A stretch of 64,000 nucleotides of DNA from an uncultured virus (IMG/VR IMGVR_UViG_3300044641_002811) (lineage: Duplodnaviria > Heunggongvirae > Uroviricota > Caudoviricetes), in IMG/VR virus record IMGVR_UViG_3300044641_002811; one strand, 5' to 3'. Both the position numbers and the translations under genes were made by a program. The notes under the pieces were generated by a model. The model saw only the letters and a list, made by a program, of their open reading frames with translations, ran no database searches and was not told the origin of the DNA. This document shows, piece by piece, positions 915 through 58,203 of this stretch (position 1 is its first letter; each line of letters begins with the position of its first letter).

Positions 915-917
915 CGC

Positions 918-2681: not shown

Positions 2682-2688
2682 CCTTAAT

Positions 2689-4407: not shown

Positions 4408-4409
4408 TA

Positions 4410-4991
4410 TCAGGCAGGCTTGAACGGGTTCGCACCTGTGAGCAAGCGCGAGATGTCAAAGCCTTCAGCTTTGGCTTCGATCCAAGCGGAATCAATATGT
4501 TCTTGCGAACCTTTTTTCCGGGGAAGAGGTCGGACAGTGTATTCAGTAGTCAAACCAGAACCTTTCTTGCCGATGGAAAAATCCCATTCGAGGAGATTGG
4601 TGTATTCATCAACTTGGGAGATCTGGTCGATTTCTTTGAGGATCGACTTTTGGGTGATCTGCAGGACTTGAACTTTGCCTGACTCGTAGTTGTAAACCGG
4701 GCAAGCGATGGCAAACTTCACGTCTGCTGTTCCAGGGCCGCCGCGTCCTTCGCGGGGTTCAAACTCGCCCATTTCGGCGACCACGTCCTCGTAGGTGGGC
4801 TCGAAGTCGAAGCGGAAGGGCTTATTGGCGCCGTTGGCGGCACCCCAGGCCTCGTAGAACTCCAGAGGTTCGTCAGTGAGTAGGGCGAAGCGGACAGATC
4901 CACCATCGGGGAGTTTGCTGAGGCTCAGGTAGCCGCCGCCGCTGTTGCCGCCGTTGACGTTTGCAGATGCGGATTTTGAAAGGAAGGCCAT
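4410..4991 (-). CDS. single-stranded DNA-binding protein-like
   Basis: Phage SSB-like pattern (YLSLSKL..SVRF..GSGLTTEY..NPF), located between exonuclease and primase. Confidence 0.6.
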   Translation of the reverse strand: MAFLSKSASANVNGGNSGGGYLSLSKLPDGGSVRFALLTDEPLEFYEAWGAANGANKPFRFDFEPTYEDVVAEMGEFEPREGRGGPGTADVKFAIACPVYNYESGKVQVLQITQKSILKEIDQISQVDEYTNLLEWDFSIGKKGSGLTTEYTVRPLPRKKGSQEHIDSAWIEAKAEGFDISRLLTGANPFKPA

Positions 4992-5131
4992 GGTTTAGGT
5001 GTTTGGTGTGGTCGGCAGGAGTGCCAACGCCTTACACAGTAACACGTGCTTGACCGGCTGGCTACCATGAAAAAACGCCCCTACAGCTGAGCTGCGGGGG
5101 CGTGGATTCCATTCTCATGTGAGACTCTAAC

Positions 5132-7528: not shown

Positions 7529-7869
7529 TGGGCCACTTCACCCCGCCTAACTTTTTTCTAGGGCTCATGCGGGTTGCCGCGTGGGTGTTTTGGAGAGATC
7601 CCGTGAAGTCGGAACCGCCCCAGCCGAAACGCCCCAGGAAGCCCACCCTGGGGTACAACGTCGGCGACATTCCCTACGAGCTGCTCGCCGTGGTGCGGGT
7701 CTCGTGGTTCCGCAAGGGCATGGCCTACGAGGTGGAGGAGTACCAGATCGAGGAGTCGGACGACGCCCCGAAACAGTTCGCCTACATCGTTGGGACAGCA
7801 CTCCGCCAAGGCGCTGATGTCTGCGTGCTCACGCAGTACGAGCCAGCTGCTCTTGGTGTGCAAGAGTAG
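7528..7869 (+). CDS. hypothetical protein
   Basis: Translationally coupled (TGATG) to the primase gene. Confidence 0.7.
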   Translation: MGHFTPPNFFLGLMRVAAWVFWRDPVKSEPPQPKRPRKPTLGYNVGDIPYELLAVVRVSWFRKGMAYEVEEYQIEESDDAPKQFAYIVGTALRQGADVCVLTQYEPAALGVQE

Positions 7870-8078
7870 AAGAGTTCCCGCTCTGCCTAGCATCGGGCCG
7901 ACAGAGCCCAAGCCTCTGTACGCCCTTGAGGCGTCTCACGCTTGGGCCATCAAATTCGAGGGGTGCAGCTCGGTCGGGGCTGCATTAAACGCGACTCGCC
8001 CATAAACCTTTGTACGCCCCTCACCCCAAATCCACTGGTGCGACTAGCTTTTGTACCTAACTTAAAAACTTTTATGTA

Positions 8079-8285
8079 ATGACCGATCGCGTACCAGATT
8101 TCGGGGAAATCGTGCTGCCGCCTGATGGCGCGGTGGAGCAGCTTGAGTCCGAGGAGCAGGAAGGTCCCAGCGACTTTGAGCTGTGCAAGGTCTATCGGGA
8201 GGCGTACTTCGCCCACCCGATCCGCCAAGGGCCGTATGCGCAGGCAGCGGGGCTTCGTGCTGTCCTGGCGCGTTACGGCAAATAG
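8079..8285 (+). CDS. hypothetical protein
   Basis: 68-aa ORF ending RAVLARYGK. Confidence 0.6.
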   Translation: MTDRVPDFGEIVLPPDGAVEQLESEEQEGPSDFELCKVYREAYFAHPIRQGPYAQAAGLRAVLARYGK

Positions 8286-8509
8286 GTAGCCGGTGGTGGG
8301 TCCTCGCGCGGTGTCCACCTTGTTTCCCGCAGCCGGCTGCTACTGGACCGCCTAGATCCCTCAAAAAAGGTCTAGGACCAAAAGCGTAGCCAGCCTCAGC
8401 CGCCTTCGCGGTTGTGAAGAAAAGCAACAGCCAGGCCTTGCGCTTGGGCGGCTTGTGTGCAACACTAAGGGCAAGCCCGCCACGGCGAGCCCTCCATTAC
8501 TGATTAACA

Positions 8510-8752
8510 ATGTACGAACCATTCCAAGCCAAAGTCTCCAACACAGACCTCAGCCCCTGGTACTACGCCGTCGGCTGGGCCAGGCACTCGCTCCAGTTGC
8601 AGATCACCCGTTACAAGGGGCTCGGTCTCAACACCAACTACGAGGAGAAGCAGGTGGCCCAGCTGCTGGAGCTGGAGCAATTCTTGAAAATGTCGTGGGA
8701 TCAGTGGATGGAATCCCTGCTTCCCGGCGAAACTGCACAGGAGGTCAAGTGA
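8510..8752 (+). CDS. hypothetical protein
   Basis: 80 aa; first gene of a coupled operon. Confidence 0.65.
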   Translation: MYEPFQAKVSNTDLSPWYYAVGWARHSLQLQITRYKGLGLNTNYEEKQVAQLLELEQFLKMSWDQWMESLLPGETAQEVK

Positions 8753-9006
8753 GCCAGGTACAAAGCATTGAGGAGCTGCGATTTGAAGGCGACCATCTTG
8801 TTGTCGATGCCGTTGTTGACGACATGGTGGTGCGCTATGCGCAGACCGCCTTCGAGCCAGCGGAGTGGGGGCCTGCCCTGTGCCGAGGCACCCTCTACTT
8901 TTCAGATGAAGACTTGATTCCAGCGACAGATGCCGAACTCCGGGCCATGCTCACAGATCGGGTCGACGACTGGACTCCACTCGACACGTCTGATTGGGAC
9001 GTCTGA
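8749..9006 (+). CDS. hypothetical acidic protein
   Basis: GTG start overlapping the upstream stop, GGAGG RBS. Confidence 0.65.
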   Translation: MSQVQSIEELRFEGDHLVVDAVVDDMVVRYAQTAFEPAEWGPALCRGTLYFSDEDLIPATDAELRAMLTDRVDDWTPLDTSDWDV

Positions 9007-9256
9007 AGCTCGTGACCTACGTAACCAGGACGACTACGACGACTGGGAAGTAGGGCTAGAGCCCATACCGGGGGATACGCACTGGGTCCGGGTTCGCACC
9101 TTGACCCAGCTTTACCGCCACCTCATCTACGTGTTCGCCACCAGCGACACCATCAGCTCCACTCGACTTGCACAGCTGGCGATCCACGAGATTCTCAAGT
9201 TGAGACTCACGGATCTCACCCGGATACGTCAGCAAGATCCCAACTACTTCGCATGA
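8930..9256 (+). CDS. hypothetical protein
   Basis: ORF in coupled operon; start uncertain. Confidence 0.55.
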   Translation: MPNSGPCSQIGSTTGLHSTRLIGTSEARDLRNQDDYDDWEVGLEPIPGDTHWVRVRTLTQLYRHLIYVFATSDTISSTRLAQLAIHEILKLRLTDLTRIRQQDPNYFA

Positions 9257-9438
9257 CTGACTGGTACGCCGACTACTACCGCCAATCGCGGGGTTACAAC
9301 GACAACGACTTGCGCGAGCTGCGCAGTGTTCCACGCAAGCCCTCAACTGAGGTGCCGGACGTGTTCAAGCACAGGTTTTCCGATCCAGCTGAGTACGATG
9401 CCTGGGTCGAAGAGCGCCGCCGCGCCTACTTCGGCTGA
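9253..9438 (+). CDS. hypothetical protein
   Basis: ATGA overlap, 61 aa. Confidence 0.6.
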   Translation: MTDWYADYYRQSRGYNDNDLRELRSVPRKPSTEVPDVFKHRFSDPAEYDAWVEERRRAYFG

Positions 9439-9454
9439 ACTCGATCCAACACGA

Positions 9455-9712
9455 ATGACTGAAACTTCAATGGTGCCCTTCTACCGCTCCTACCTACTGG
9501 GCGGGAAGCTGGTGTACCTCGATAAGTTGTCCGAGCTGTCTGATAGCGAGCTGAACATGCTCAACATCGAGACCATGGCTTCCCTGGAGGAAGCACGGCG
9601 TGATTACGACGCCATCGAAAACAAGCAAAGCGAGGAGGGCGGTTCTGTCTACCGCCGCCTCAAGGTGGCCGGCTATTTCCAAGCTGCCATCAAACTGGAG
9701 CTTCAAAACTGA
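9455..9712 (+). CDS. hypothetical protein
   Basis: Start MTETSMVPF inside ORF 9326-9712. Confidence 0.6.
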   Translation: MTETSMVPFYRSYLLGGKLVYLDKLSELSDSELNMLNIETMASLEEARRDYDAIENKQSEEGGSVYRRLKVAGYFQAAIKLELQN

Positions 9713-9745
9713 CCATCCCCTACTACACTGCACCCGTTCTTACTC

Positions 9746-10156
9746 ATGAGCATGTACGTCCTCTCTGAATCCCAGTTCGATCAAATCTCCAAAGCACTCG
9801 AAGCAGCACGCTTTGCCCTGGAGACGTCCCAGCACGTTCAGCTGGATCTGACTAAGCCCAAGCAGACCATTCCCCTGCCCGCTGGCGAAAAAATTGTCCG
9901 GGCAACGTCCGTACAAAAAACCCAGTCTCAAAGTAAGACTCGTAAGTCCAGCCGCAAGGGCAAGCGTGGTGTAGCGGTGCTGAACGAGGGGCAGGTGTTG
10001 GAAATTAAGCGGCAGATCGCGTCTGGCGGGAAGTCCGTCGCAAAAATTGCTCGTGACTTTGGCGTTCATGTCACCACCATCAACTGCATCAAGTCCGGCA
10101 AGACTTGGAAGCATGTGGCGCTCCAGCAGCCCACTCCGGTTGTGGTGGCTGACTGA
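9746..10156 (+). CDS. C-terminal HTH DNA-binding protein
   Basis: LNEGQVLEIK..IARDFGVHVTTINCIKSGKTWKHV. Confidence 0.75.
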   Translation: MSMYVLSESQFDQISKALEAARFALETSQHVQLDLTKPKQTIPLPAGEKIVRATSVQKTQSQSKTRKSSRKGKRGVAVLNEGQVLEIKRQIASGGKSVAKIARDFGVHVTTINCIKSGKTWKHVALQQPTPVVVAD

Positions 10157-10668
10157 TGGCGATCTTGTGTGATCATGAGATCCACAACCTGGCGCGGCGG
10201 GGCTTGGTCTCGCCGTTTCTCCAGGAGTTGGTAAATCCCGCCAGTCTCGATGTGAGACTCGGTGAGAATCTGCTGGTAGAAGAGCCGAAGGTTCCTGCCT
10301 TACTTCCTTTCAGCATTGCTGGGCATACGCAGGAAGATCCGTTCATGCTCCAGCCGCATGAGTTCGTGCTTGCGGAGACGTTGGAGGAGTTCGATCTCCC
10401 GGATTGTGTCGCTGGGCAGCTGGCGCTTAAGTCGAGTCGTGCCAGGGAAGGGATTGAGCATCTTCTTGCCGGGTACATAGACCCCGGGTACAAAGGGCGG
10501 CTAACGCTGGAACTGCAAAACGCTAGGTCCTTGCACGCTGTTCCGCTGTGGCCCGGTATGCGTATCGCGCAGATTGTGTTCCACAAGATGTCGATGTTGC
10601 CCGGCAAAAGTTACTCCGTGACTGGTCGCTATCAAGGCGACACTGCTGTTCAGGCTTCTAAAGGATGA
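10156..10668 (+). CDS. dcd: dCTP deaminase
   Basis: NPASLDVRLG, KSSRAREG, IDPGYKGRLTLEL, PGMRIAQ and YQG motifs. Confidence 0.92.
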   Translation: MAILCDHEIHNLARRGLVSPFLQELVNPASLDVRLGENLLVEEPKVPALLPFSIAGHTQEDPFMLQPHEFVLAETLEEFDLPDCVAGQLALKSSRAREGIEHLLAGYIDPGYKGRLTLELQNARSLHAVPLWPGMRIAQIVFHKMSMLPGKSYSVTGRYQGDTAVQASKG

Positions 10669-10907
10669 GTAATTCAGTTGACCATCCCTCGCACTACACG
10701 GCGGGGAAGACTGAGGTGATTGAGGTGCTTGAGGATTGGGTGCGACATGCGCCTGATGCTCGTACTGGTTCGCTCCAGTGGCAGTGCCTCAAATACCTCA
10801 GTCGGATGTGGCTGAAGAAAGATCCGCTGGAGGATGCGATGAAGTGTCGCTGGTATCTGAACCGCTTGATTAACACCTTGGCAACGGAGCCCTATCAGAA
10901 CCGATGA
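10665..10907 (+). CDS. DUF3310 / T7 gp1.7-like protein
   Basis: VDHPSHY..EVIE..KYLSR..KK..ED..K..WYL. Confidence 0.85.
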   Translation: MSNSVDHPSHYTAGKTEVIEVLEDWVRHAPDARTGSLQWQCLKYLSRMWLKKDPLEDAMKCRWYLNRLINTLATEPYQNR

Positions 10908-11068
10908 GGTACTGGTGGCGGATTGTCGCCAAGGCGTTGGGTGAGAAGGCGCACCAGCACAATCGGATTGCTGATCAGGTTGCACTGGTGCGTTTTTGCA
11001 TCTTGCTGGCTTACATGATTACAAACATTTTCATTTGCGCAGGAGTTATTCGTCACTGGAATGGCTAA
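10904..11068 (+). CDS. 54-aa membrane microprotein (not in ORF track)
   Basis: MRYWWRIVAKALGEK...ITNIFICAGVIRHWNG; overlaps both neighbours. Confidence 0.75.
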   Translation: MRYWWRIVAKALGEKAHQHNRIADQVALVRFCILLAYMITNIFICAGVIRHWNG

Positions 11069-11564
11069 CTATTGCACTCACAGTTTTCGCAGAATCATCA
11101 ACACGTACAACTGGAGAAACGGGTCAACGATCCGCTCGTACCGCTTCCGTTGTAAGTGTTGTGGGTACAGGTGGAATGTCTACTACGACAAGAAACTCAA
11201 GCGGGAAGTTGTTCCAACGCACAAGTCGGACAACAAACCCCTGGAGACAAGAAAGCTGACGCCGGAAGAGGTCAAGTTGATCCTTACGGATCAGCGGGAC
11301 AACGTAAAGCTGGCGCGGCTCTTAGGTGTTGTGCCCCAGTCGGTTAGTCAGATCAGGACAGGGCGGGCGTACAAAGATTTGTGGCCTGAGCTTCCACGCC
11401 GAGCTGCACAAGTTAAAGCTTCTGGGCCTGTACCGACAATTCGCAGCACGAAAATTACGTGTCGGGATTGTGCGCACTGGTGGCAGAAGCGGTGCAGCTT
11501 GGATGTTCCAGAAGCTGGTGGGACTTTTGCCATCGAATGTTCTTTCTACCAAGTTGATGAGTAA
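11061..11564 (+). CDS. Zn-ribbon, HTH and Cys-cluster protein
   Basis: CKCC ribbon; LARLLGVVPQSVSQIRTG HTH; CRDCAHW..C..PE..C. Confidence 0.7.
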   Translation: MANYCTHSFRRIINTYNWRNGSTIRSYRFRCKCCGYRWNVYYDKKLKREVVPTHKSDNKPLETRKLTPEEVKLILTDQRDNVKLARLLGVVPQSVSQIRTGRAYKDLWPELPRRAAQVKASGPVPTIRSTKITCRDCAHWWQKRCSLDVPEAGGTFAIECSFYQVDE

Positions 11565-11839
11565 TGGCCATCACGATCAACAGCAGAGCGTGCCAGGGCT
11601 GTGGTACGCCGACGACAAACCCGGTGCTGTGCATGAAGTGTTATCGCACCAGTCCCGCTGGGCGGGAAGAGGAAAGGATGGAGCGGTTGCGGCGGGGGTA
11701 CAAGCCCCAGCCGGATGGAGGCCCATGTAAGAACTGCATACACTGGAAAGCGCGGTGCTTGCTTGGGTTTCCCGAGGGTGGGACACTCGCGGCGGCGGTG
11801 CTGTGCTCGGCGCGGGAGGTTGACAGCCTGCTAGAGTAG
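11564..11839 (+). CDS. Cys-rich protein
   Basis: CQGC..CMKC and CKNCIHW..C..PE..C. Confidence 0.7.
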   Translation: MAITINSRACQGCGTPTTNPVLCMKCYRTSPAGREEERMERLRRGYKPQPDGGPCKNCIHWKARCLLGFPEGGTLAAAVLCSAREVDSLLE

Positions 11840-11864
11840 TAGGGTACAAGCTGCCCTACCAGGC

Positions 11865-13691
11865 ATGACAATCCTTCAAGGCATCGAGCATCTGTCCACG
11901 CTCGATGATGCAAGTTTCGTTGCGTTTGATGTTGAGACCACCGGGCTCCAGCCGAAGTTCGGTGGTCTTCGTCTTGTGCAGTTGGCGACCTTCGGTAAGC
12001 CTCCAGTAGTGCTGGATTGCTGGAGCTTCAGTGATGAGGACTGGATCACACTGGAAGAGTTCTGCAGCGTTTCAAGGCAATGGCTGGCGCACAATGCGGT
12101 GTTTGATCTCGGGTGGTTGCAGGAGCATGAGATCTATCCAGAGGGCAAGGTTTACTGCTCGATGCTGGCCAGTCGGATCCTGACGAACGGGCTGCCGAAT
12201 CTGAAGCACGGGCTCCAGCACGTCGTTCACCGCTACCTCGGCCAAGACATTTCCAAGGAAGAGCAAAAGAGCGATTGGTCGGCTGATCTGCGCGTGGAGC
12301 AGATCGAGTATGCGGCTAAGGATGTGGTGGTGCTGACCCAGCTGTGGGAACAAATAACAAAGCGGATGGCGACTGGTGCGTTGATGCCAGCGTGGGAGCT
12401 TGAGTGCAAAGCACTTCCTGCAATGGCGCAGCTGTGGCGTACAGGGCTGCCATTCGATAAGAAGATGCTGGAGCAGCTAATTGAAGATCTTGATATTGAA
12501 AATGTTGAGGTCGGAGAAAAGTTCATCGAGGATTTTGATACAGCACTTCCGCCAGAACACAAGCTGCATCGTGGGCTTGATGGAAAGTTGTTGTACCAGA
12601 CGAAGCCGGGGCCTAAAGGTAAGAAGCCGAACCCGAATGTTTTTAACCTCAATAGTCCGGCGCAGTTGCTTAAAAAGTTCACTGCTTTGTTGGGTGAGCC
12701 GCCGATGGATATGAAGAACGGGAAGCCTAGTGCTAGTCGTTCTGCGCTCCAGGAATATGTTGGTGATCACAAAGTTGTGGCGGATTATTTGCGGTGGAAA
12801 AAGATTGAGAAGCGGCGGCAGATGGCGGAAACTTTGTTAAAGAACTATTCGGCTGATGGGTTTATTCGCGCCAGTTATTTGCAGCTTGGGGCTGATACTG
12901 GACGGATGAGTTGTATTTCGCCGAACCTCCAGCAGATTCCGCGTGATCCGCGTTTTAGATTGGCAGTCCAAGCTCCAGCTGGTTGGAAACTGGTTGTAGC
13001 GGACTACGGGCAGATGGAGCTTCGCTTGGCGGCCGCAGAAGCACAGGATCCCTTAATGACAGAGGTGTTCCAGCAGGGGCAGGACCTCCATACGATGACG
13101 GCGACGCAGATTTATGGGGTTGAGCCAGATGAGGTTACGAAGGAACAGAGGCAAATCGCAAAATCGGCAAACTTCGGACTGCTATACGGAAGTGGTGCAA
13201 AAGGACTCAGAAATTACGCAGCAGCAACAGGCATCCAGATGGATATTGATGAGGCGGCGGAGGTGCGGCAAAAGTTTCACGCTGCATATAAAGGCATCTC
13301 CCAATGGCAGCAGCAAAATGCTCGCGCTGCTGATGCGGCTAAGGACAATCCATCTATCCGCATACGCATCTCGGGCTTGCGGCGGTTTCTACCGGGTGAG
13401 CACAACAAACTCACCACGCGCTGCAACACTCCAATCCAAGGGGCAGGTGCTGCAGTCCTCAAACTTACTCTCGGCAAACTGTGGCCTCTACTCCACGCCG
13501 ACGGGGAGGACGTGGTGCGTTTGGCCGGCGTGGTGCATGACGAAATCATCTTGCTCGTCCGCGAAGAACACGCAGATGTCTGGGCGCTCCAGCTGCAAAC
13601 CGTGATGGAGGAAGCTGAAGCTCGTTGGTTGGGCAAAATTCCACCGCTTGCTGAAGCTAAGGTCGGGGATAGCTGGCAAGAGGCCAAGTGA
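11865..13691 (+). CDS. polA: family A DNA polymerase with 3'-5' exonuclease domain
   Basis: FDVET (ExoI), TGRMS..PNLQQIP, DYGQMELR (motif A), KSANFGLLYG (motif B, Phe), VHDE (motif C). Confidence 0.95.
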   Translation: MTILQGIEHLSTLDDASFVAFDVETTGLQPKFGGLRLVQLATFGKPPVVLDCWSFSDEDWITLEEFCSVSRQWLAHNAVFDLGWLQEHEIYPEGKVYCSMLASRILTNGLPNLKHGLQHVVHRYLGQDISKEEQKSDWSADLRVEQIEYAAKDVVVLTQLWEQITKRMATGALMPAWELECKALPAMAQLWRTGLPFDKKMLEQLIEDLDIENVEVGEKFIEDFDTALPPEHKLHRGLDGKLLYQTKPGPKGKKPNPNVFNLNSPAQLLKKFTALLGEPPMDMKNGKPSASRSALQEYVGDHKVVADYLRWKKIEKRRQMAETLLKNYSADGFIRASYLQLGADTGRMSCISPNLQQIPRDPRFRLAVQAPAGWKLVVADYGQMELRLAAAEAQDPLMTEVFQQGQDLHTMTATQIYGVEPDEVTKEQRQIAKSANFGLLYGSGAKGLRNYAAATGIQMDIDEAAEVRQKFHAAYKGISQWQQQNARAADAAKDNPSIRIRISGLRRFLPGEHNKLTTRCNTPIQGAGAAVLKLTLGKLWPLLHADGEDVVRLAGVVHDEIILLVREEHADVWALQLQTVMEEAEARWLGKIPPLAEAKVGDSWQEAK

Positions 13692-13858
13692 CCCAGGAGG
13701 ATTTTGAGTACCGCGTTCGGATGCACACGCGCCACGGCGGTACTCACGATCTGTTCATCGTTGCTCCAGATGCTTTCTCCGCACGGATGAAGGCACTGGA
13801 GCTTTGTCCTGAGCATCGGCCCCAGTCGGTGATGCGAGTCTCAGATTGCGTCTCATGA
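13688..13858 (+). CDS. 56-aa hypothetical protein (not in ORF track)
   Basis: GTGA overlap with the polA stop; MTQEDFEYRVRM... Confidence 0.55.
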   Translation: MTQEDFEYRVRMHTRHGGTHDLFIVAPDAFSARMKALELCPEHRPQSVMRVSDCVS

Positions 13859-14064
13859 GTCCAGCCCGCACGGGAAGAGAGCTGGTGCTCGAATGGCTGA
13901 ATCGGGAAATTCGTGCGGCGAAGACGGCGGATTTGCAGCGGGCTGCGGCTTTTTTGGAGTGGGCTAGGGATATACGGAAGGGATGTGCCAAGCAGAGGGG
14001 TGGGGCGCGGGTGGCGCAGGCCAATGCGTGGCGGAAGCGGGTGGATGACGACGTGCGGTGGTGA
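13855..14064 (+). CDS. hypothetical protein
   Basis: ATGA overlap; MSPARTGRELV... Confidence 0.6.
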   Translation: MSPARTGRELVLEWLNREIRAAKTADLQRAAAFLEWARDIRKGCAKQRGGARVAQANAWRKRVDDDVRW

Positions 14065-14113
14065 GACTACTGTGACTCAGTATGCTATTGTGTAGCAGAC
14101 TAGACCGCAGGCC

Positions 14114-14383
14114 ATGCCCCTGAACCACGGAAACAAGTATTACTGCCAGCTCCTGATTGACCCCAACCGTTACAAGCTGGCGGAGAATCTTGCGTCCCAA
14201 GAGGGCAAGAAGGTTACGGCGTACTTGCGGGAGCTGGTTTACGCAGGATTGGCGCTGAGATCGTCGGAGTACAAGACTGCTCAGGAAGCGGATGAGGCGG
14301 CTTGGCGCGAATCGGTGAAGCGGCGAGTTGAGGGGCGGATGCGTTCCAAGCAAGAGGGCAAAGTGTCAGAAACTGACGCATGA
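14114..14383 (+). CDS. ribbon-helix-helix-like DNA-binding protein
   Basis: YCQLLID strand, then helices ..EGKKVTAYLRELV. Confidence 0.55.
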   Translation: MPLNHGNKYYCQLLIDPNRYKLAENLASQEGKKVTAYLRELVYAGLALRSSEYKTAQEADEAAWRESVKRRVEGRMRSKQEGKVSETDA

Positions 14384-14451
14384 GACTCAGTTGTGTTTCG
14401 TGATATACCGACAGCGTGCGCAGATAGCCTTTAACCTTACACAGTAGTCAC

Positions 14452-14676
14452 TTGAGAGCAATGACGCGCTATGTCGTCATGGTCGAGGATCGCTGGGTTA
14501 CGGCGGTTTACGACTCTGGTAAAGGAATCGGTTTCACCAGATCCAAGGAGGACGCATCCTCGTGGGTCACATACGAGCGGGCTGTCGCTGCGGCGAGAAC
14601 TGTTGCTCAGTCTTGTAACTGCGACGCTGCTGTGCATTGCGTTGATGAACCCGCCTATCCCCAATCATGGAAGTAG
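14452..14676 (+). CDS. hypothetical protein
   Basis: ORF track, operon context. Confidence 0.55.
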   Translation: MRAMTRYVVMVEDRWVTAVYDSGKGIGFTRSKEDASSWVTYERAVAAARTVAQSCNCDAAVHCVDEPAYPQSWK

Positions 14677-14990
14677 TGCCATTCCAGGAACAGCAGGACC
14701 CCGAACTGAGGCTCGGTGAAGGTCGCTCGCGTACCAGTGCAGAAAAAGCTCAGCTGTTCGAGCTGATGATTTGGCTGCCTGGCCAAGGCGCCATGCGGGA
14801 CTTGGTGCGGGCGGAGTCGCTCCAGCAGGCGATTCAGTTTGCGCAAAACCGCTACCCGAACTGCAAGGTGGAGGTGCCGACGGCGGCGGCGAAAAAACCT
14901 AAGCTGGCTCGTGCCAAAAATGGGCCGCGTGAAACGGCCCGTAGGCGTCTCAAACTCGTGGAGAAAAGGAATGAGCCAGCAGATCGCTGA
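14667..14990 (+). CDS. hypothetical protein
   Basis: ORF track, operon context. Confidence 0.55.
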   Translation: MEVVPFQEQQDPELRLGEGRSRTSAEKAQLFELMIWLPGQGAMRDLVRAESLQQAIQFAQNRYPNCKVEVPTAAAKKPKLARAKNGPRETARRRLKLVEKRNEPADR

Positions 14991-15141
14991 CTGGGCACGC
15001 CAGTCGTGGGGTGAGGTCATCGTCGACCAGAATCGCGCTGACCTTTTGGACAAGCTCTACTTCTGGGATGGGCGGGACAAAAAAGACCACCCGCTCCACG
15101 CCACATATACCGGGCTGTATCGCAAATACACCGCCAACTAG
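14971..15141 (+). CDS. hypothetical cyanophage protein
   Basis: AAAGGA RBS; DGRDKKDHPLHATYTGLY motif. Confidence 0.65.
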   Translation: MSQQIADWARQSWGEVIVDQNRADLLDKLYFWDGRDKKDHPLHATYTGLYRKYTAN

Positions 15142-15359
15142 GCGGAGTCGCGGTCCATCCCAAACTGATCGGCCAGGTTATCTGCAGCTTCGCGGATAGC
15201 CCAGGCCGATTTTGTGCGTTCCAGCTGGTGGAGTGTGTTCAGCACTAAAGCGGCTTCAAGCAGGCCGCGATAGTCTTGTTTGTTGAACAGGTTGACTAAC
15301 CACTGGTCAGTGGCAGCCTTGTGGAAGCTGGACTCAGCGCTGTGTTCGATGGGGCGCAT
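15138..15359 (-). CDS. small helical protein downstream of the lysin
   Basis: 73 aa; starts 2 nt after the lysin stop. Confidence 0.65.
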   Translation of the reverse strand: MRPIEHSAESSFHKAATDQWLVNLFNKQDYRGLLEAALVLNTLHQLERTKSAWAIREAADNLADQFGMDRDSA

Positions 15360-15361
15360 GA

Positions 15362-16489
15362 TTAACCTTTGCGAATTCGCATGAACCAGCCTGTGTCGTT
15401 GCCTTCGATGAGCCAGCGAGGCAGCCAGTTCTTTCTGGAGTAGGCGATGCCCGCTCCGCCTTTATTGCTGACGTAGCCACCGTTCACCAGATCTGCCTCC
15501 CCAAAAGGGTCCATATGTATGAAGTGGGTAGGGGTATAACCAGCAACTACGCTCCAGTGGCCTGTTCCTGTGGGGTTGGATACAGGCCCTTTGTGTAACC
15601 AGCCGACAGGAACTGGATGACCGTTAGCGATCTCAGTTTCTAAGTCCTCGACTGTCCCATCCATCTCGAAGGTGGCGGTCAGTCCCAGTGCTTTGAGGGC
15701 AGCAATCTGTGCTTTTGGGTCAGTTGTATCACCGAAACGAGCGCGTAAGGCGTTGTACTCATAATCGCCGTTTACTTTTCCGTAGTAGCGAGCCACCATC
15801 GCGCAGCTGGAACTAAAGCACTGACGCCAGCCCTTGGGGCCGTCATCTGATCCAAGCTGGTATTCGTAGGGAACTTTTAGCAGCTTTTGGTTTGGCGGAA
15901 CGACAGGTTTAGTTCCCGCATGTTGTTCCATCAGTTGGATTAGCTTCCCTGGGTAGTTCGGGTCTGTTGCGTAGCCCTCTTTGTGAAGCCATCTAGCGGC
16001 CTCTTCACGGGTAGCAGCGTTATTGCAGCCCTTATAGTTTTTGTAGTCTTTGTACCAGTGATCTACGAGGTAGATCACGCATGAGAGCAAATCTGGAAAG
16101 TCGATGAAACTGTCAGTGATTGTTACCCACTGACCGTTAATAAACTCTTGTGTTTTCTTGTCGCTGCCTTCACCTTTAAGACCGAAAAAATTGTTTCTTC
16201 CAGATACTAATTTGCCGTAATTTGATTCGAGTGCCCATTGGGCAGCTACGAGTTCGGGGAATTTTGCACCAGCAACTCTGGCAGCTTCAAGGATGCCTTC
16301 CCAGCTGTTGGGAAACTGGCTTTGTTTGCCGGCAACGCTCCAAGTTTTGAACCAGCCTTGGTCGCGGCCCAAGATATGCGGATTGGCCTTATTGATTGCT
16401 TGCTCCAGTTCGGTGACAGCCGCCATCTGATGGGGCAGTCCCTTGTAGAAGCGAAACAGGTCGCTAAGACGGATTTTGTTGCTTGCCAT
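15362..16489 (-). CDS. endolysin: GH73 glucosaminidase then C39-like peptidase
   Basis: AQWALESNYG..NNFFGLKG..YATDPNY, then VPYEYQ..QCFSSSCAM..GHW..DPFG. Confidence 0.88.
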   Translation of the reverse strand: MASNKIRLSDLFRFYKGLPHQMAAVTELEQAINKANPHILGRDQGWFKTWSVAGKQSQFPNSWEGILEAARVAGAKFPELVAAQWALESNYGKLVSGRNNFFGLKGEGSDKKTQEFINGQWVTITDSFIDFPDLLSCVIYLVDHWYKDYKNYKGCNNAATREEAARWLHKEGYATDPNYPGKLIQLMEQHAGTKPVVPPNQKLLKVPYEYQLGSDDGPKGWRQCFSSSCAMVARYYGKVNGDYEYNALRARFGDTTDPKAQIAALKALGLTATFEMDGTVEDLETEIANGHPVPVGWLHKGPVSNPTGTGHWSVVAGYTPTHFIHMDPFGEADLVNGGYVSNKGGAGIAYSRKNWLPRWLIEGNDTGWFMRIRKG

Positions 16490-16706
16490 CGGACCAAGGG
16501 GCGTGGATGCTCATGGCGCCGCCCAGTAGGCGGCTGTCGCCGGTTTGGAGCTGTTCATCAATTTCGTGGTGAACGATCACAGGAGGTGGATCGGTCGGTT
16601 GGGTTGCGTGCCAGTCCGCTTCAGCCCCGTCGAGCTTGCCGGGGAGTAGTAGCTCAAACCACCACTCCCGTACAGCCTGCTCCCAAGTTTTGTTTAGAGC
16701 TTTTTT
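16464..16706 (-). CDS. -1 frame extension of the holin-like protein (probable programmed frameshift)
   Basis: A_AAA_AAG at 16706-16700, two codons before the stop; -1 frame stays open to 16464. Confidence 0.6.
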   Translation of the reverse strand, partial: KKALNKTWEQAVREWWFELLLPGKLDGAEADWHATQPTDPPPVIVHHEIDEQLQTGDSRLLGGAMSIHAPWSDGKQQNPS

Positions 16707-16834
16707 CCTTTGATAGCGCGGAGGGCGTGGAACACCAGCTGGATGATGCTGTTGTCCTTCAGCGGCGACAGAGCAATCAGCTCGGAAGCGGCTGCGACGC
16801 AAATCCAGAAGGCTGGATGCTGGATGAAGTCCAT
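16694..16834 (-). CDS. 46-aa holin-like membrane protein (not in ORF track)
   Basis: MDFIQHPAFWICVAAASELIALSPLKDNSIIQLVFHALRAIKGKKL; hydrophobic with basic tail; upstream of the lysin. Confidence 0.7.
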   Translation of the reverse strand: MDFIQHPAFWICVAAASELIALSPLKDNSIIQLVFHALRAIKGKKL

Positions 16835-16933
16835 GGGAAATAGGAACCCTGCAGGAAGTTTAGCTGTACTAGAGAAGAGTTCCTGCGCACGTAATAGTTT
16901 CTACCGCTACATTCCGGGTAGCTACTGCTTGGT

Positions 16934-17254
16934 ATGGACCATCGCATTGAGGATGGCGAATACTTAAACAAGAAGGAAGCAAAAGCACGATTTAGGCAAT
17001 CAATCCTTAACCATTGGAATAACTCTTGCGCCTATTGCGGGGTAGACCTGGGGCGATCTGCAACCCTGGATCATGTGCACCCCAAGTTCAGAGGAGGACA
17101 TACGCACCAGCAGAATCTTGTGGCTTGCTGCTTTGGGTGCAATATCTCAAAGTCGGCGGAAGATTGGCTGGAGTGGTACAGGGACCAGCCTTTTTGGGAG
17201 CCGCATCGAGAGGACGCGATTATTGCGTGGATTACTGAGGGGCTTGTTGCTTAG
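16934..17254 (+). CDS. HNH endonuclease (McrA-like)
   Basis: CAYCG..TLDHVHPK..GG..NLVACCFGCNISK. Confidence 0.9.
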   Translation: MDHRIEDGEYLNKKEAKARFRQSILNHWNNSCAYCGVDLGRSATLDHVHPKFRGGHTHQQNLVACCFGCNISKSAEDWLEWYRDQPFWEPHREDAIIAWITEGLVA

Positions 17255-17417
17255 GATCCCAGCCCATGCCTTCGAGGTACATCATTGCGATGTAGTGGTC
17301 TTCGGCGTAGCGGCAGATGCTGCCTTTGCAGGCGCGGTAGTACAGCTCGCCGCGTTCGTTTTCCAGCTGATCCAGGCTGTAGCCGTTGCCGTAGTCGGTG
17401 GTGCTGACGATGCTCAT
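17232..17417 (-). CDS. hypothetical protein
   Basis: 61 aa; ATGA-coupled to the upstream gene. Confidence 0.6.
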   Translation of the reverse strand: MSIVSTTDYGNGYSLDQLENERGELYYRACKGSICRYAEDHYIAMMYLEGMGWDPKQQAPQ

Positions 17418-17665
17418 TTTTTGCTGCCGACGGTCATTTCAATGTGGCGCACTCTGGTTTCGAGATCACTAAGCCTTTCTTTTGAGTCGTTCTTGAGTTC
17501 TTGAATATCAGCAGCGACCGTACTAACCGATTGATCAAGCTTGGCAACCTGAATAAAAAGACCACCTAACCCGATCACAGCTGTGGCCAGCAATGCCGGC
17601 ACAGCTTGGTTGATCAAGTTAGGTGGTTGTGGTGCGGCGGCGTGTACTTCCTCGTGATGTTCCAT
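17414..17665 (-). CDS. TM plus coiled-coil protein (lysis-associated)
   Basis: Start MEHHEE; hydrophobic AVPALLATAVIGLGGLFI followed by heptads. Confidence 0.6.
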   Translation of the reverse strand: MEHHEEVHAAAPQPPNLINQAVPALLATAVIGLGGLFIQVAKLDQSVSTVAADIQELKNDSKERLSDLETRVRHIEMTVGSKK

Positions 17666-17696
17666 TGCGAGGCATACTGCCGACCTTTTTACTAAT

Positions 17697-17834
17697 TTAG
17701 CGCCCTTGGCCGACCAGTTTTTTCTTGCCACGGCGGCGCGGACGGCTGTGCTGGCCATAACCCTGCCTTGTGGTTTTGGGGCGTCCTGCCTTGTGATCGA
17801 CGCGCCCCAGTGCGGTTTTACTCTTGGCCGCCAA
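17697..17834 (-). CDS. 45-aa basic microprotein (not in ORF track)
   Basis: TTG start; AAKSKTALGRV..TRQG.G..S.P..GKKKLVGQGR; homologous to 45186-45323. Confidence 0.65.
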   Translation of the reverse strand: MAAKSKTALGRVDHKAGRPKTTRQGYGQHSRPRRRGKKKLVGQGR

Positions 17835-18321
17835 TTTCAGGATCCTCCATTACAGGTTGAGGTGCGTAGGGATCAGCGGGCCACGCGGGATAATCGGGTC
17901 CGGTGATATATGCCGCCAGAGCGGCGGTGTCGGTAGTCTGCTGGATTTCGTAGACCTTGCTGCCAGAGGCGAGACGGATTTCCTCGCGCCAAGTGCGCAG
18001 CACAGGATCAGCGGTTTTGCCGTTATCTGCCTCGCGGATGATGATCCAGTCCGTTGGTGCCAGCAGGGTGTTGGCCGTGTGGCGCGTTTGCTGAGTCCAC
18101 TGCTCAACCAACTGGGTGTGGTCCTTGGGGATCAGGTTGCCCTCGGCGTCGTAGCCCCAGTAGAAACGTTGGTCCCAGGTGGCAGGATCGGGCACTTCAG
18201 TAATGCCGATAGCCTGGCGCTCCTCGGGGCTGGCCAGTCTGACCCAGTTAGCCGGGTACTGGACGCCGTTATGGGTGAAGGCCACGTCTGGGCTCAGTGG
18301 CTTGCCGTCTAACAGGAACAT
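17818..18321 (-). CDS. tail fibre assembly/chaperone-like protein
   Basis: YPANW..GITEV..DQRFYW; LLAPTDWIIIR..WREEIR; lies downstream of the fibre genes. Confidence 0.65.
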   Translation of the reverse strand: MFLLDGKPLSPDVAFTHNGVQYPANWVRLASPEERQAIGITEVPDPATWDQRFYWGYDAEGNLIPKDHTQLVEQWTQQTRHTANTLLAPTDWIIIREADNGKTADPVLRTWREEIRLASGSKVYEIQQTTDTAALAAYITGPDYPAWPADPYAPQPVMEDPEIGGQE

Positions 18322-18385
18322 CTGTACTGGACCTAGACAGGAGGCACGTATAGCGGTACTTTACTCGGCCCTGTAGGCGACTACT

Positions 18386-19240
18386 GTGCCACACACCCTC
18401 CAAAGCGCATGGGCCGAGTTCCACGCAGAGCGTTCTGCTGTCTTGTGTCCCACCAGTCTCATGGCGGACTACAGACAAGTCGATAAGTGGATCGGGCGCT
18501 GTCCGGTTACAGAACTGGAGCAAGGCAGGCAGGTTCTTACATGGGTTTTGAGCCAGCAACCTGTCAAGTCCAGCCGCCGTGTGGCGATGTACGTCAAGGC
18601 TCTTTACCGCTGGGTAAGCAGCGAAGACATTGCTTACCTACCCAAGAATCCGATTGCCAGTTTTCGGATGCCGAAAGCACCCCAGATGGATGAAGAAATC
18701 ATCGTAATTCCACGCAGTGAAGTAGCGCTTTTACTTACTGCTCTAGAAGCTCGCCAAACAAAATGTGGCGCACGTTGGTCGGCATACTCCGAATTTATGT
18801 TGCAGACTGCAATGCGCACAGGTGAAGTTCGTGCCGCCAAGTGGACAGATCTAAAGGATGGCAAGCTATTGATCCATTGCAATTACACCCTTACGCACGG
18901 CCTAAAACTATCTACAAAAACAAATAAAAAACGTGTTGTGCCTTTGAACGAAAAGTGTTTAGAAATTCTTGATTCCGTGGACAAGGACAATGAGTACATT
19001 TTTCCGTACAACAGGTATGCGTTCCAGAGCTTCTTCTATGACAGAGCGAAGGAATTACACAACGCTGGATTAACCAGTCATCGTTACCGGCCTTACGATC
19101 TGCGCCACACAGCAATCAGCCGTTGGATTGAGGCGGGAATACCTGTGGCGCAAGTCGCAAAGTGGGCTGGCAATACGGCTGAGGTTATTTGGAAGCACTA
19201 CTGCAATACGACACAGGACTACGAAATGCCGACGCTTTAA
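18386..19240 (+). CDS. tyrosine recombinase
   Basis: TAMRTGE (R), STKT (K), YDLRH, AGN, KHY (Y). Confidence 0.9.
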   Translation: MPHTLQSAWAEFHAERSAVLCPTSLMADYRQVDKWIGRCPVTELEQGRQVLTWVLSQQPVKSSRRVAMYVKALYRWVSSEDIAYLPKNPIASFRMPKAPQMDEEIIVIPRSEVALLLTALEARQTKCGARWSAYSEFMLQTAMRTGEVRAAKWTDLKDGKLLIHCNYTLTHGLKLSTKTNKKRVVPLNEKCLEILDSVDKDNEYIFPYNRYAFQSFFYDRAKELHNAGLTSHRYRPYDLRHTAISRWIEAGIPVAQVAKWAGNTAEVIWKHYCNTTQDYEMPTL

Positions 19241-19403
19241 CCTTGTTCTCTAGTGGGGCCGGGGTTAGTGTGCTCTCCAAAAGATCTTTTTCAGCCTTGA
19301 GTGCTGCCCTAATCTGGCAAAGCACATGCTCTTCAGCTTCAGCGTTGCCGGAGTCGATGGCGCGTAAAAGACGTAAGCAGAGTGATTGGTAGTCAGCGTT
19401 CAT
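19185..19403 (-). CDS. hypothetical protein
   Basis: 72 aa; starts 5 nt after the fibre gene stop. Confidence 0.5.
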   Translation of the reverse strand: MNADYQSLCLRLLRAIDSGNAEAEEHVLCQIRAALKAEKDLLESTLTPAPLENKVKASAFRSPVSYCSSASK

Positions 19404-57894: not shown

Positions 57895-58203
57895 TTATTT
57901 CTCATCATACGTCTCAACATACCACGGAGCCGTTAGACGCATCTCAGGGAGGTTTGTAGACGTGTCTGACGGCTTTTCTGTGTAGATTGGAGTGACATAA
58001 TCAGGTGCAGGTGGTTGAAGCGTTTCCCATTCCTTAATCGCTTCATCCAACTCAACCTTCACGCGGTTGTTGATGAGCTTCTCCTCCAACCAAACCAGAA
58101 GACCAAGCAGTAGATGATCTACCCATGGGATTTTTGTCTTCCATGCTTTGTACAGAGCTTTGAACTCATTTAGTCTGAGTCCTTTGACCACATTGCTTTG
58201 CAT
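57895..58203 (-). CDS. hypothetical protein homologous to the phage A frameshift extension
   Basis: LDEAIKEWETLQPP..EMRLTAPW. Confidence 0.7.
   Translation of the reverse strand: MQSNVVKGLRLNEFKALYKAWKTKIPWVDHLLLGLLVWLEEKLINNRVKVELDEAIKEWETLQPPAPDYVTPIYTEKPSDTSTNLPEMRLTAPWYVETYDEK

What the first reader, a model, noticed from the sequence alone, without database searches (positions are those of the whole stretch)
16464..16834. Programmed -1 frameshift in the lysis cassette: short and long holin-like products
Seen: an unannotated 46-aa hydrophobic ORF (16834-16694) ends GGA AAA AAG CTC TAA, placing A_AAA_AAG in frame at 16706-16700. The -1 frame stays open (ALNKTWEQAVREWWFELLLPGKLDGAEADWHATQP..MSIHAPW) to 16464, overlaps the endolysin start, and has no convincing start of its own; the fusion would be 123 aa. 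About 30 nt downstream is an 11-bp hairpin GGGAGTGGTGG/CTACTACTCCC whose loop region could pair with AGCTCGA; this is farther than the usual 5-9 nt spacer. The extension resembles the stand-alone phage B protein 57895-58203, which supports it being real coding sequence. Established: A_AAA_AAG is the dnaX/IS-type slippery heptamer; phage frameshifts are best known in tail-chaperone and capsid genes. Inference: a fixed-ratio holin/antiholin- or spanin-like pair made by recoding.
Basis: partly seen in the sequence, partly recalled or inferred. Interest (0 to 1): 0.85.

Follow-up and report, generated by a model that had tools for sequence, protein, structure and literature searches.

The report
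Conserved frameshift in cyanophage lysis gene
A small membrane-protein gene just upstream of a cyanophage's cell-wall-degrading enzyme is read in two ways: most ribosomes stop after 46 residues, and some probably slip back one base to make a 123-residue version, a recoding signal kept in about 200 related phage sequences but annotated in none of the cultured ones.

Summary
A 46-aa one-TMD ORF (16834..16694, minus strand) ends GGA AAA AAG CTC TAA. The heptamer A_AAA_AAG is in phase at 16706-16700, and the -1 frame runs on to 16464, overlapping the endolysin start.

One heptamer is not above chance: the window holds 10, against 9.4 expected. Comparative data decide the case.
- **Frame:** in 197 of 198 unique homologous junction contexts the conserved extension lies in the -1 frame. 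The odd one (L261) has the same junction plus a later 1-nt deletion.
- **Heptamer:** 188 of the 197 -1 contexts have a perfect in-phase heptamer at the same spot. It switches between A_AAA_AAG (123), G_GGA_AAG (31) and C_CCA_AAG (29).
- **No own start:** 169 of 197 have no ATG/GTG/TTG in the -1 frame upstream of the slip site.
- **Fusions and reads:** rare in-frame fusion proteins exist. Contigs from four other runs show no indel in the A run.

Programmed -1 ribosomal frameshifting is therefore the best explanation (about 0.85-0.9).

The gene sits directly before an endolysin in 65 of 69 sampled loci. Its role (holin/antiholin-like isoform pair) is inferred, not shown. Phages S-CBS3 and S-EIVl carry the site unannotated.

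The parts
16694..16834 (-). 0-frame ORF 'N46': 46-aa small membrane protein (short product), stop TAA at 16696-16694
   Evidence: One hydrophobic segment (Kyte-Doolittle 17-residue peak 1.74 at residues 9-25), N-flank charge -1, C-flank +4. Matches phrog_22542 (unknown function), E 1.1e-29. Found upstream of the extension in 301 of 311 sources; the other 10 are cut by a contig end.
16700..16706 (-). Slippery heptamer A_AAA_AAG in X_XXY_YYZ phase, one codon before the 0-frame stop
   Evidence: The same position holds a perfect heptamer in 188 of 197 unique -1 contexts: AAAAAAG 123, GGGAAAG 31, CCCAAAG 29, AAAAAAC 3, CCCAAAA 2. Heptamer positions 3-5 are invariant A and position 6 is G in 183 of 188, while neighbouring third-codon positions have 1.5-1.9 bits of entropy.
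16464..16700 (-). -1 frame extension: 78 codons (ALNKTWEQ...QQNPS) plus TAG stop; C-terminal part of the 123-aa long product
   Evidence: 95 protein homologues. Nearly invariant motif LQTGDSRLLGGAMSIHAPW. AlphaFold2 model with mean pLDDT 86.3. Net charge -7.
16642..16669 (-). Hairpin GGGAGUGGUGG-UUUGAG-CUACUACUCCC, 30 nt 3' of the heptamer
   Evidence: Kept in the window's subfamily (hairpin segment about -20 kcal/mol in the closest loci, -12 to -24 across the subfamily). Its spacing is 18, 30 or 54 nt in the different subfamilies and it is absent in others. Probably not the frameshift stimulator.
15362..16489 (-). Endolysin (Glucosaminidase + Peptidase_C39_2); its start overlaps the end of the extension by 26 nt
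   Evidence: Pfam E 4.9e-18 and 1.4e-9. phrog_10051 endolysin, E 9e-141.
17414..17758 (-). 114-aa protein with one TMD (residues about 53-71) and a C-terminal coiled-coil-like tail; conserved upstream cassette member
   Evidence: 78-80% identical homologues stand upstream of the frameshift gene in L083 and L085, which belong to another extension subfamily. No Pfam hit.
16934..17254 (+). HNH endonuclease gene on the opposite strand, inside the cassette just upstream of N46
   Evidence: Pfam HNH_5 3.6e-8 and HNH 7.4e-8.
57895..58203 (-). Stand-alone 102-aa protein with its own ATG; possible distant relative of the C-terminal half of the extension
   Evidence: BLASTP E 0.014. hhalign probability 37%, E 3.5e-4. 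phrog_22672, unknown function. The relationship is not established.

Best explanation
The region is one gene with two products, made by programmed -1 ribosomal frameshifting.

How it is read: ribosomes start at the ATG at 16834 and translate a 46-aa protein with one transmembrane segment. With GGA-AAA-AAG in the E/P/A sites, a fraction of ribosomes slip one base back on A_AAA_AAG. The P-site tRNA-Lys moves AAA to AAA and the A-site tRNA-Lys moves AAG to AAA. These ribosomes miss the TAA one codon later and add 78 residues, giving a 123-aa isoform with the same membrane anchor and an acidic, structured tail that ends 26 nt inside the endolysin gene.

Shown by comparison: the frame relation, the heptamer and the lack of an own start are conserved.

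Inferred:
- The short form is the major product and the long form the minor one. No strong stimulator was found at the canonical spacing, so efficiency is probably low, as recalled for bare A_AAA_AAG and for lambda G/GT.
- The charge distribution points to an N-out/C-in topology, so the tail would be cytoplasmic.
- The pair acts in lysis (position before the endolysin; holin-like features). The likeliest role is a fixed-ratio pair of isoforms that share a TMD and co-assemble, with the long form modulating hole formation or timing, like an antiholin.

My odds: frameshift about 0.85-0.9; lysis role about 0.5; holin/antiholin-type pair about 0.3.
For: 1. Frame conservation. The sources were the window, 240 IMG/VR loci, 4 genome loci, 64 metagenome loci and the 2 cultured-phage loci. 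Of these 311 sources, 301 could be classified. They collapse to 198 unique 300-nt contexts, and 197 have the extension in the -1 frame, none in frame. The one '+1' case (L261) has the normal -1 junction plus a later 1-nt deletion.

2. Heptamer conservation with switching. A perfect in-phase heptamer sits at the same offset in 188 of 197; 4 more have one at another offset and 5 have near-heptamers. The codon before AAA AAG varies (GGA/GCA/CCA/TCA/ACA/GTA/AGA/CAA) but always ends in A. Where the next codon is CCA or GGA, the preceding codon ends in C or G.

3. No own start. 169 of 197 contexts have no ATG/GTG/TTG in the -1 frame between its upstream stop and the slip site, and 149 also have none in the next 10 codons. 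In many contexts a -1-frame stop lies directly 5' of the heptamer.

4. The extension is conserved as protein from its first residues, 'AL...'.

5. Database proteins that are in-frame N46+extension fusions exist: P0011, P0106, P0109, P0110. P0073 equals the predicted -1 product, while its 99%-identical DNA locus L247 is frameshifted.

6. Not a sequencing error. DNA contigs of 2 runs and RNA-library contigs of 2 runs cross the A run without gaps. The cultured phages S-CBS3 and S-EIVl have the same arrangement.

7. Not transcriptional slippage family-wide. 60 of 197 contexts have only AAA in the heptamer (CCCAAAG or GGGAAAG).

8. A picocyanobacterial MAG that carries a related locus shows a single tRNA-Lys, anticodon UUU, among the 38 tRNAs found. 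This fits the preference for AAG in the A site (recalled from E. coli).

9. Lysis context. 65 of the 69 downstream ORFs that I sampled from 131 non-redundant ones carry peptidoglycan-hydrolase domains.
Against: - No protein or ribosome-profiling data exist: neither product has been seen.
- No conserved stimulatory element was found at the canonical 5-9 nt spacing. The window's hairpin is 30 nt away. The B-family consensus has 17 pairs and only 1 shows changes on both sides.
- Five contexts lack a perfect heptamer.
- Some homologues have a TTG two codons after the slip site that gene callers used as a start.
- Function is unsupported by homology. There are no Pfam hits, PHROG matches are to unknown-function families only, and there is no fold match.
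- Another TMD protein in the cassette (17414-17758) could be the real holin.
- The tRNA survey is of one incomplete MAG, not the host.
- The in-frame fusion proteins come from single metagenomic contigs and could be assembly errors.
Confidence: 0.8

Rival explanations
1. Two separate genes: the extension is translated independently, either from its own start codon (the TTG at 16802 in this window) or by termination-reinitiation coupling at the N46 stop.
For: The window has a TTG at 16802 that opens a 112-aa ORF. Gene callers produced such proteins (P0001, P0002). Ten contexts have a start codon (e.g. TTG) one codon after the slip site. S-CBS3 gp22 is annotated from an internal start.
Against: - 169 of 197 unique contexts have no ATG/GTG/TTG in the -1 frame upstream of the slip site, and 149 also have none within 10 codons after it.
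- The position of the window's TTG (-102) holds a start codon in only 13 of 197.
- The region upstream in the -1 frame is an out-of-frame reading of N46 and is cut by stops directly 5' of the heptamer in many loci.
- Conserved extension residues begin immediately after the heptamer.
- Independent starts would not explain the invariant in-phase heptamer.
Confidence: 0.05
2. A broken gene or an assembly or sequencing error in the A6 run: the true gene is an in-frame fusion.
For: Homopolymer runs are error-prone. A few database proteins are in-frame fusions (P0011, P0106, P0109, P0110).
Against: - The same -1 arrangement occurs in 197 of 198 unique contexts from many samples, and in two cultured phage genomes.
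- It persists where the heptamer is CCCAAAG or GGGAAAG, which have no long homopolymer.
- Contigs of four other runs cross 16700-16706 with no gap.
- A decaying pseudogene would not keep the extension under protein-level conservation.
Confidence: 0.02
3. Transcriptional slippage: RNA polymerase adds or drops an A in the A6 run, and a subset of mRNAs encodes the fusion.
For: In the window and in 123 of 197 contexts the site contains six consecutive A. RNA contigs cannot exclude rare variants.
Against: - 60 of 197 contexts have only three A (CCCAAAG or GGGAAAG) yet keep the same architecture.
- What is conserved is the X_XXY_YYZ codon phase rather than run length.
- From recall, productive slippage in bacteria generally needs runs of about 9 or more.
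- RNA-library contigs of 2 runs show A6; this is weak evidence, because contigs drop rare variants.
Confidence: 0.05
4. The frameshift is real, but the isoforms are not a holin/antiholin pair. For example, the long form could be a membrane tether or regulator for the endolysin, a spanin-like envelope protein, or something unrelated to lysis such as superinfection exclusion.
For: - No homology to any known holin.
- Another TMD protein with a coiled-coil tail (17414-17758) is conserved in the cassette.
- The endolysins keep a conserved roughly 60-aa N-terminal module of unknown role while their catalytic domains swap.
- In-frame fusion variants would make only the long form.
- A distant stand-alone relative sits next to thyX, not next to lysis genes.
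Against: - N46 has the generic holin features: small, one TMD, basic C-terminus, immediately upstream of a signal-less endolysin.
- The extension has no Cys, and the only Cys of N46 (FWIC) is not in a lipobox-type context and is replaced by Val in relatives. The charge distribution puts the extension in the cytoplasm. Both argue against a spanin.
Confidence: 0.35

Closest known systems
Phage lambda G/GT (and the general tailed-phage tail-assembly-chaperone) -1 frameshift
   Same: A -1 slip late in a short phage ORF gives a minor C-terminally extended isoform that shares its N-terminus with the major short product. The site is conserved across very divergent phages. G_GGA_AAG, recalled as the lambda heptamer, is the heptamer in 31 of 197 contexts here. 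A downstream structure is usually absent, as stated for P2-like E/E+E' in PMC3091744 (passages read).
   Different: Different gene and place. Here it is a one-TMD membrane protein directly before the endolysin, not a chaperone between the tail tube and tape-measure genes. There is no sequence relationship.
E. coli dnaX gamma/tau -1 frameshift
   Same: The same heptamer A_AAA_AAG, with Lys AAG in the A site. The dependence on a single tRNA-Lys(UUU) is recalled; one search is consistent with it.
   Different: In dnaX the shifted product is the shorter one, and two strong stimulators (an upstream SD about 10 nt away and a stem-loop about 6 nt downstream, recalled) drive about 50% efficiency. No equivalent conserved elements were found here.
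Lambda S105/S107 dual-start holin/antiholin
   Same: In my reading, one lysis gene gives two membrane-protein isoforms in a fixed ratio that share TMD sequence and could co-assemble.
   Different: Lambda uses two start codons and differs by 2 N-terminal residues (recalled). Here the difference would be a 78-residue C-terminal tail made by recoding. Opposing activities are not shown here, and there is no homology.
[quoted passage not shown]
   Same: A translational frame change is linked to expression of a lysis function. Both were seen only as citations or background in PMC10885494 (passages).
   Different: In MS2 the frameshift leads to termination and reinitiation at a separate lysis gene. 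The lactococcal case concerns the lysin enzyme itself. Neither is a conserved X_XXY_YYZ site extending a holin-like membrane protein.

Membership tests
Programmed -1 ribosomal frameshift site | Slippery heptamer X_XXY_YYZ in the 0-frame phase | tested here: met
   A_AAA_AAG at 16706-16700 with codons GGA AAA AAG. Perfect in 188 of 197 homologous contexts at the same offset.
Programmed -1 ribosomal frameshift site | The -1 ORF continues past the 0-frame stop, is conserved as protein and lacks its own initiation site | tested here: met
   The extension HMM hits the -1 frame in 197 of 198 contexts. There is no start codon upstream in 169 of 197.
Programmed -1 ribosomal frameshift site | Synonymous-site conservation or covariation of the heptamer among homologues | tested here: met
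   AAA/CCC/GGG triplets span a codon boundary. Positions 3-5 are invariant, and position 6 is G in 183 of 188. Flanking third positions have 1.5-1.9 bits of entropy.
Programmed -1 ribosomal frameshift site | Stimulatory element (downstream hairpin or pseudoknot 5-9 nt away, or an upstream SD-like sequence) | tested here: inconclusive
   The 90 nt after the heptamer fold more stably than shuffles (mean z -2.77 against -0.35 for control windows, 16 loci each). However, stems start 5 to 24 nt away, differ between subfamilies and lack covariation. The window's hairpin is 30 nt away.
Programmed -1 ribosomal frameshift site | Both products detected; efficiency measured | not testable with these tools
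   No proteomic or ribosome-profiling data were available.
Holin | Small protein with at least one TMD and a charged hydrophilic C-terminus | tested here: met
   46 aa, hydropathy peak 1.74 at residues 9-25, C-terminal flank charge +4. This rests on hydropathy only.
Holin | Encoded next to the endolysin | tested here: met
   The extension overlaps the endolysin start by 26 nt. 65 of 69 sampled downstream ORFs are peptidoglycan hydrolases.
Holin | Membership in a described holin family | tested here: not met
   No Pfam hit. PHROGs gives only phrog_22542 and phrog_15106, both of unknown function.
Holin | Forms lethal membrane lesions that release endolysin | not testable with these tools
   Needs expression or complementation assays.
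Spanin (i-/o-/u-spanin) | Lipobox Cys (o- or u-spanin), or N-terminal TMD with a periplasmic coiled-coil domain (i-spanin) | tested here: not met
   The extension has no Cys, and the only Cys of N46 lies in the TMD and is Val in relatives. The positive-inside charge pattern places the tail in the cytoplasm. Topology was not measured.
Tail assembly chaperone G/GT frameshift | Located between the major tail and tape-measure genes; chaperone fold | tested here: not met
   In S-CBS3 the gene lies after the tail-fibre gene and before the endolysin. The protein has a TMD.

The most novel reading that the evidence does not exclude
Picocyanobacterial siphoviruses set lysis timing with a 'dual-stop' holin. 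A -1 ribosomal frameshift one codon before the stop of a 46-aa holin makes a fixed minority of a 123-aa isoform. Its acidic cytoplasmic tail makes it an antiholin or an endolysin-docking subunit of the same hole-forming oligomer. This would be a recoding-based counterpart of lambda's dual-start S105/S107 and the first conserved programmed frameshift in a holin gene.
Probability: 0.25. Interest if true: 0.85.

Novelty: new variant of a known kind. Interest (0 to 1): 0.68.

Why it matters
Programmed -1 frameshifting in tailed phages is textbook for tail chaperones and some capsid genes, but I know of no conserved case in a lysis-cassette membrane protein. Six full-text searches and passages of five papers turned up none.

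- **Annotation.** The gene is mis-annotated as two hypothetical ORFs in S-CBS3. In S-EIVl the first ORF is not called at all. IMG/VR holds 376 confirmed relatives of the extension, so annotation of a widespread group of freshwater and marine Synechococcus phages would change.
- **Cyanophage lysis.** How cyanophages lyse their hosts is poorly known, and a frameshift-fixed isoform ratio would be a testable timing device.
- **Recoding.** The family offers a natural series in which A_AAA_AAG, C_CCA_AAG and G_GGA_AAG replace each other at one site, mostly without an obvious stimulator.

Tried and rejected
- **Complex prediction** of the extension (A4) with the conserved endolysin N-terminal module (A5, residues 1-62). 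The result was 'no answer' (score 0.01, mark 0.32), so it is no evidence either way.
- **Fold search of the extension model.** Foldseek against PDB gave no match at E <= 0.001. VIA-align wide gave a best Z of 2.9. No functional lead.
- **ESM Atlas.** The best hit scored 0.88, with unnamed clusters only.
- **Pfam on both halves:** nothing. **PHROGs:** unknown-function families only.
- **Family-wide RNA structure.** RNAalifold per subfamily found no common structure at fixed spacing. The B-family consensus was weak (-8.8 kcal/mol; 1 of 17 pairs with double changes).
I did not test it separately, because the hairpin's spacing and lack of conservation already argue against a stimulator role.
- **The genome search 'own'.** The window's assembly is not held, so the host tRNA set and genome context could not be read. 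I used a MAG that carries a related locus instead. It is incomplete, so the absence of tRNA-Lys(CUU) is not proven.
- **The search of earlier findings:** no earlier notes.
- **P0073 as a natural in-frame fusion.** Rejected as evidence: its 99%-identical DNA locus L247 is frameshifted.
- **L261 as a '+1' exception.** Rejected: the junction is normal and a later 1-nt deletion shifts the frame.
- **Coverage in the laid runs.** All four were contigs, not raw reads, so they say nothing on expression level or rare variants.
Full report
**What is in the window**

On the minus strand, a 46-aa ORF (16834..16694) reads MDFIQHPAFWICVAAASELIALSPLKDNSIIQLVFHALRAIKGKKL and ends ...ATC AAA GGA AAA AAG CTC TAA. 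The heptamer A_AAA_AAG occupies 16706-16700 in the X_XXY_YYZ phase. The -1 frame is open from 16802 to the TAG at 16466-16464. It overlaps by 26 nt the ATG (16489) of a 375-aa endolysin with Glucosaminidase and Peptidase_C39_2 domains. A -1 slip would give a product of 45+78 = 123 aa.

All stated coordinates are therefore right. On its own, though, the heptamer means little: AAAAAAG occurs 10 times in the window against 9.4 expected.

**The comparative test**

The 78-aa extension has 95 protein homologues, all hypothetical. Their N-termini fell into several kinds:
- out-of-frame readings of the 46-aa ORF (for example ...RYQGKKALGKTW);
- starts called at scattered internal codons;
- a few in-frame fusions.

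I then fetched DNA:
- 240 IMG/VR loci from three scans with three subfamily alignments (the first scan confirmed 376 relatives, of which 80 were kept);
- 4 loci from species genomes;
- 64 metagenome loci;
- the two cultured-phage records.

I located the 46-aa ORF ('N46') and the extension in all three forward frames with profile HMMs built from the loci themselves. Of 311 sources, 10 were cut by a contig end before N46 and 301 could be classified. They reduce to 198 unique 300-nt junction contexts. In 197 of these the extension is in the -1 frame of N46, and in none is it in frame. The single '+1' case (L261, a 1013-nt contig) has the usual AAA AAG junction and the first 22 extension residues in the -1 frame. 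A missing T in a TTT run then shifts the rest.

**The slip site is what is conserved**

- **Position.** In 188 of the 197 contexts a perfect in-phase heptamer starts 10 nt before the 0-frame stop (heptamer, one codon, stop): A_AAA_AAG 123, G_GGA_AAG 31, C_CCA_AAG 29, A_AAA_AAC 3, C_CCA_AAA 2. Four more have the heptamer at another offset. Five have near-heptamers: GGAAAAG twice, GAAAAAG, CCCGAAG and GCCAAAG.
- **Preceding codon.** The codon before AAA AAG encodes Gly, Ala, Pro, Ser, Thr, Val, Arg or Gln but always ends in A. Before CCA AAG it ends in C, and before GGA AAG it ends in G.
- **Column composition.** Heptamer positions 3-5 are invariant and position 6 is G in 183 of 188. Neighbouring third-codon positions carry 1.5-1.9 bits of entropy; for example, the Lys codon just upstream is freely AAA or AAG.
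- **Stop codon.** The 0-frame stop is TGA in 124 contexts, TAG in 48 and TAA in 26.

This is selection on slipperiness, not on the amino acids.

**Alternatives**

*Independent initiation.* 169 of 197 contexts have no ATG/GTG/TTG in the -1 frame between its upstream stop and the slip site, and 149 also have none in the first ten codons after it. In many loci a -1-frame stop lies directly 5' of the heptamer. The position of the window's own TTG at 16802 holds a start codon in only 13 contexts. The extension is conserved as protein from its first residues, 'AL...'.

*Sequencing error or pseudogene.* The arrangement recurs in many samples and in the cultured phages S-CBS3 and S-EIVl. In S-CBS3, gp21 is annotated as a 46-aa hypothetical and gp22 is called from an internal start. 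In S-EIVl, N46 is not annotated and the heptamer is G_GGA_AAG. DNA contigs of two other runs and RNA-library contigs of two runs cross 16700-16706 with no gap; these are contigs, so rare variants would not show.

*Transcriptional slippage.* 60 of 197 contexts have only three A in the site.

*Is the fused polypeptide meaningful?* Database proteins P0011, P0106, P0109 and P0110 are in-frame N46+extension fusions made by other indels. P0073 equals the predicted -1 product of a G_GGA_AAG relative, but its 99%-identical DNA locus L247 is frameshifted, so I do not count it as a natural fusion.

**Stimulators**

The same WWFE-coding hairpin, however, lies 18 nt from the heptamer in one subfamily and 54 nt in another, and it is absent in the others.

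Across 16 representative loci the 90 nt after the heptamer fold more stably than shuffles (mean z -2.77). Control windows 500 nt further on, in the same loci, average -0.35 (paired Wilcoxon p = 1.5e-4). The loci are not phylogenetically independent.

The stems start anywhere from 5 to 24 nt downstream and differ between subfamilies, and the 'WLARFG' subfamily mostly has none. In the largest subfamily (63 sequences) the consensus is weak, with only 1 of 17 pairs changing on both sides. I therefore regard a structural stimulator as unresolved.

A passage in PMC3091744 notes that phage tail-chaperone frameshift sites usually lack one.

The strict preference for AAG in the A site fits a host with only tRNA-Lys(UUU). 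That dependence is recalled from E. coli. A picocyanobacterial MAG carrying a related locus shows one tRNA-Lys, anticodon UUU, among the 38 tRNAs found. The MAG is incomplete, and the window itself encodes no tRNA.

**What the proteins are**

- **N46.** It has one hydrophobic segment (residues about 9-25, with a conserved Ser-Glu inside), an N-flank charge of -1 and a basic C-flank of +4. By the positive-inside rule this suggests N-out/C-in. It matches only phrog_22542, of unknown function.
- **The extension.** It is acidic (net -7), has no Pfam or PHROG match, and carries a nearly invariant LQTGDSRLLGGAMSIHAPW motif. Its AlphaFold2 model is confident (pLDDT 86.3): a long helix at 6-32, two short strands and a short helix. 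Nothing in the PDB resembles it.
- **Context.** The next gene downstream is a peptidoglycan hydrolase in 65 of the 69 ORFs I sampled from 131 non-redundant ones. Its catalytic domains swap: Glucosaminidase+C39_2, Phage_lysozyme+M15_3, Phage_lysozyme+C39_2, or lysozyme alone. A roughly 60-aa N-terminal module (NKIRLxDLFRYYKxLPHQMAA...) is retained throughout. In S-EIVl the endolysin homologue is adjacent but convergent.
- **Other cassette member.** A 114-aa TMD/coiled-coil protein (17414-17758) is a further conserved cassette member.

**Reading**

The frameshift is well supported. The function is inferred. N46 has the generic holin hallmarks: small, one TMD, a charged C-terminus, and a position immediately before a signal-less endolysin. 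It belongs to no described holin family. The most economical model is that the short and long isoforms share the TMD and co-assemble, at a ratio fixed by frameshift efficiency, with the long form's tail modulating hole formation or handling of the endolysin. A spanin role is unlikely: there is no lipobox, and the tail is probably cytoplasmic. A membrane tether for the endolysin, or a role outside lysis, cannot be excluded.

**Known or new**

Six full-text searches and passages of PMC6157547, PMC9671017, PMC10885494, PMC13704836 and PMC3091744 gave no report of a conserved programmed frameshift in a holin-like gene or in cyanophage lysis genes.

The nearest items were:
- heuristic GeneMarkS frameshift predictions 'near predicted holins' in Streptomyces BI2 phages (PMC9671017, passage);

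Subscription-journal papers, including the original S-CBS3 genome paper, were not searchable.

I rate this a new variant of a known kind of recoding. Interest is 0.68.

Noticed in passing
window 1-19300 versus 19400-64000: The window looks composite. The left part (GC 0.52-0.61) carries the lysis cassette and an integrase (18386-19240). The right part (GC about 0.47-0.55) corresponds to a 44.7-kb, 99%-complete virus record, G001, which shares 48% of the window's words. This could be two phage genomes side by side, tandem prophages or a mis-join; the window's own assembly is not held.
   Followed up: partly
window 15362-16489 (-), residues 1-62; alignment A5: The endolysins downstream of the frameshift gene keep a conserved roughly 60-aa N-terminal module (NKIRLxDLFRYYKxLPHQMAA..., no Pfam hit) while their catalytic domains are swapped between Glucosaminidase+C39_2, Phage_lysozyme+M15_3 and others. 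Its role is unknown.
   Followed up: partly
window 16934-17254 (+): An HNH endonuclease gene sits on the opposite strand inside the lysis cassette, between the 61-aa ORF and N46. In S-CBS3 an HNH gene lies after the endolysin instead. It is a likely mobile insertion.
   Followed up: no
window 57895-58203 (-): A stand-alone 102-aa protein (phrog_22672, unknown function) overlaps the 3' end of a ThyX-like gene (58170-58817). It has a weak likeness to the C-terminal half of the extension (...EWETLQPP...MRLTAPW).
   Followed up: partly
L246 (Synechococcus phage S-EIVl, KJ410740) 1708-2114 and 2175-3284: In the deposited annotation the N46 ORF is not called. The convergent 369-aa 'hypothetical protein' AHV82130.1 is 52.5% identical to the window's endolysin over 373 aa.
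   Followed up: yes
window 16437-16857, run X14: One contig of a drinking-water metagenome joins 16437 to 16857 with 236 other letters in between. The flanks are conserved but the N46/extension segment is replaced by a different, shorter version, which suggests allele or cassette exchange at this locus (table 5).
   Followed up: no
window 17414-17758 (-): A 114-aa protein with a basic N-terminus, one TMD and a coiled-coil-like C-terminal tail (an i-spanin-like or holin-like architecture) is conserved upstream of the frameshift gene in other subfamilies. No family match.
   Followed up: partly
loci with AAG GGA AAA AAG (e.g. L003, L017): Many relatives carry two overlapping in-phase heptamers, G_GGA_AAA followed by A_AAA_AAG (36 of the first 83 loci). 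A slip at either gives the same protein.
   Followed up: no
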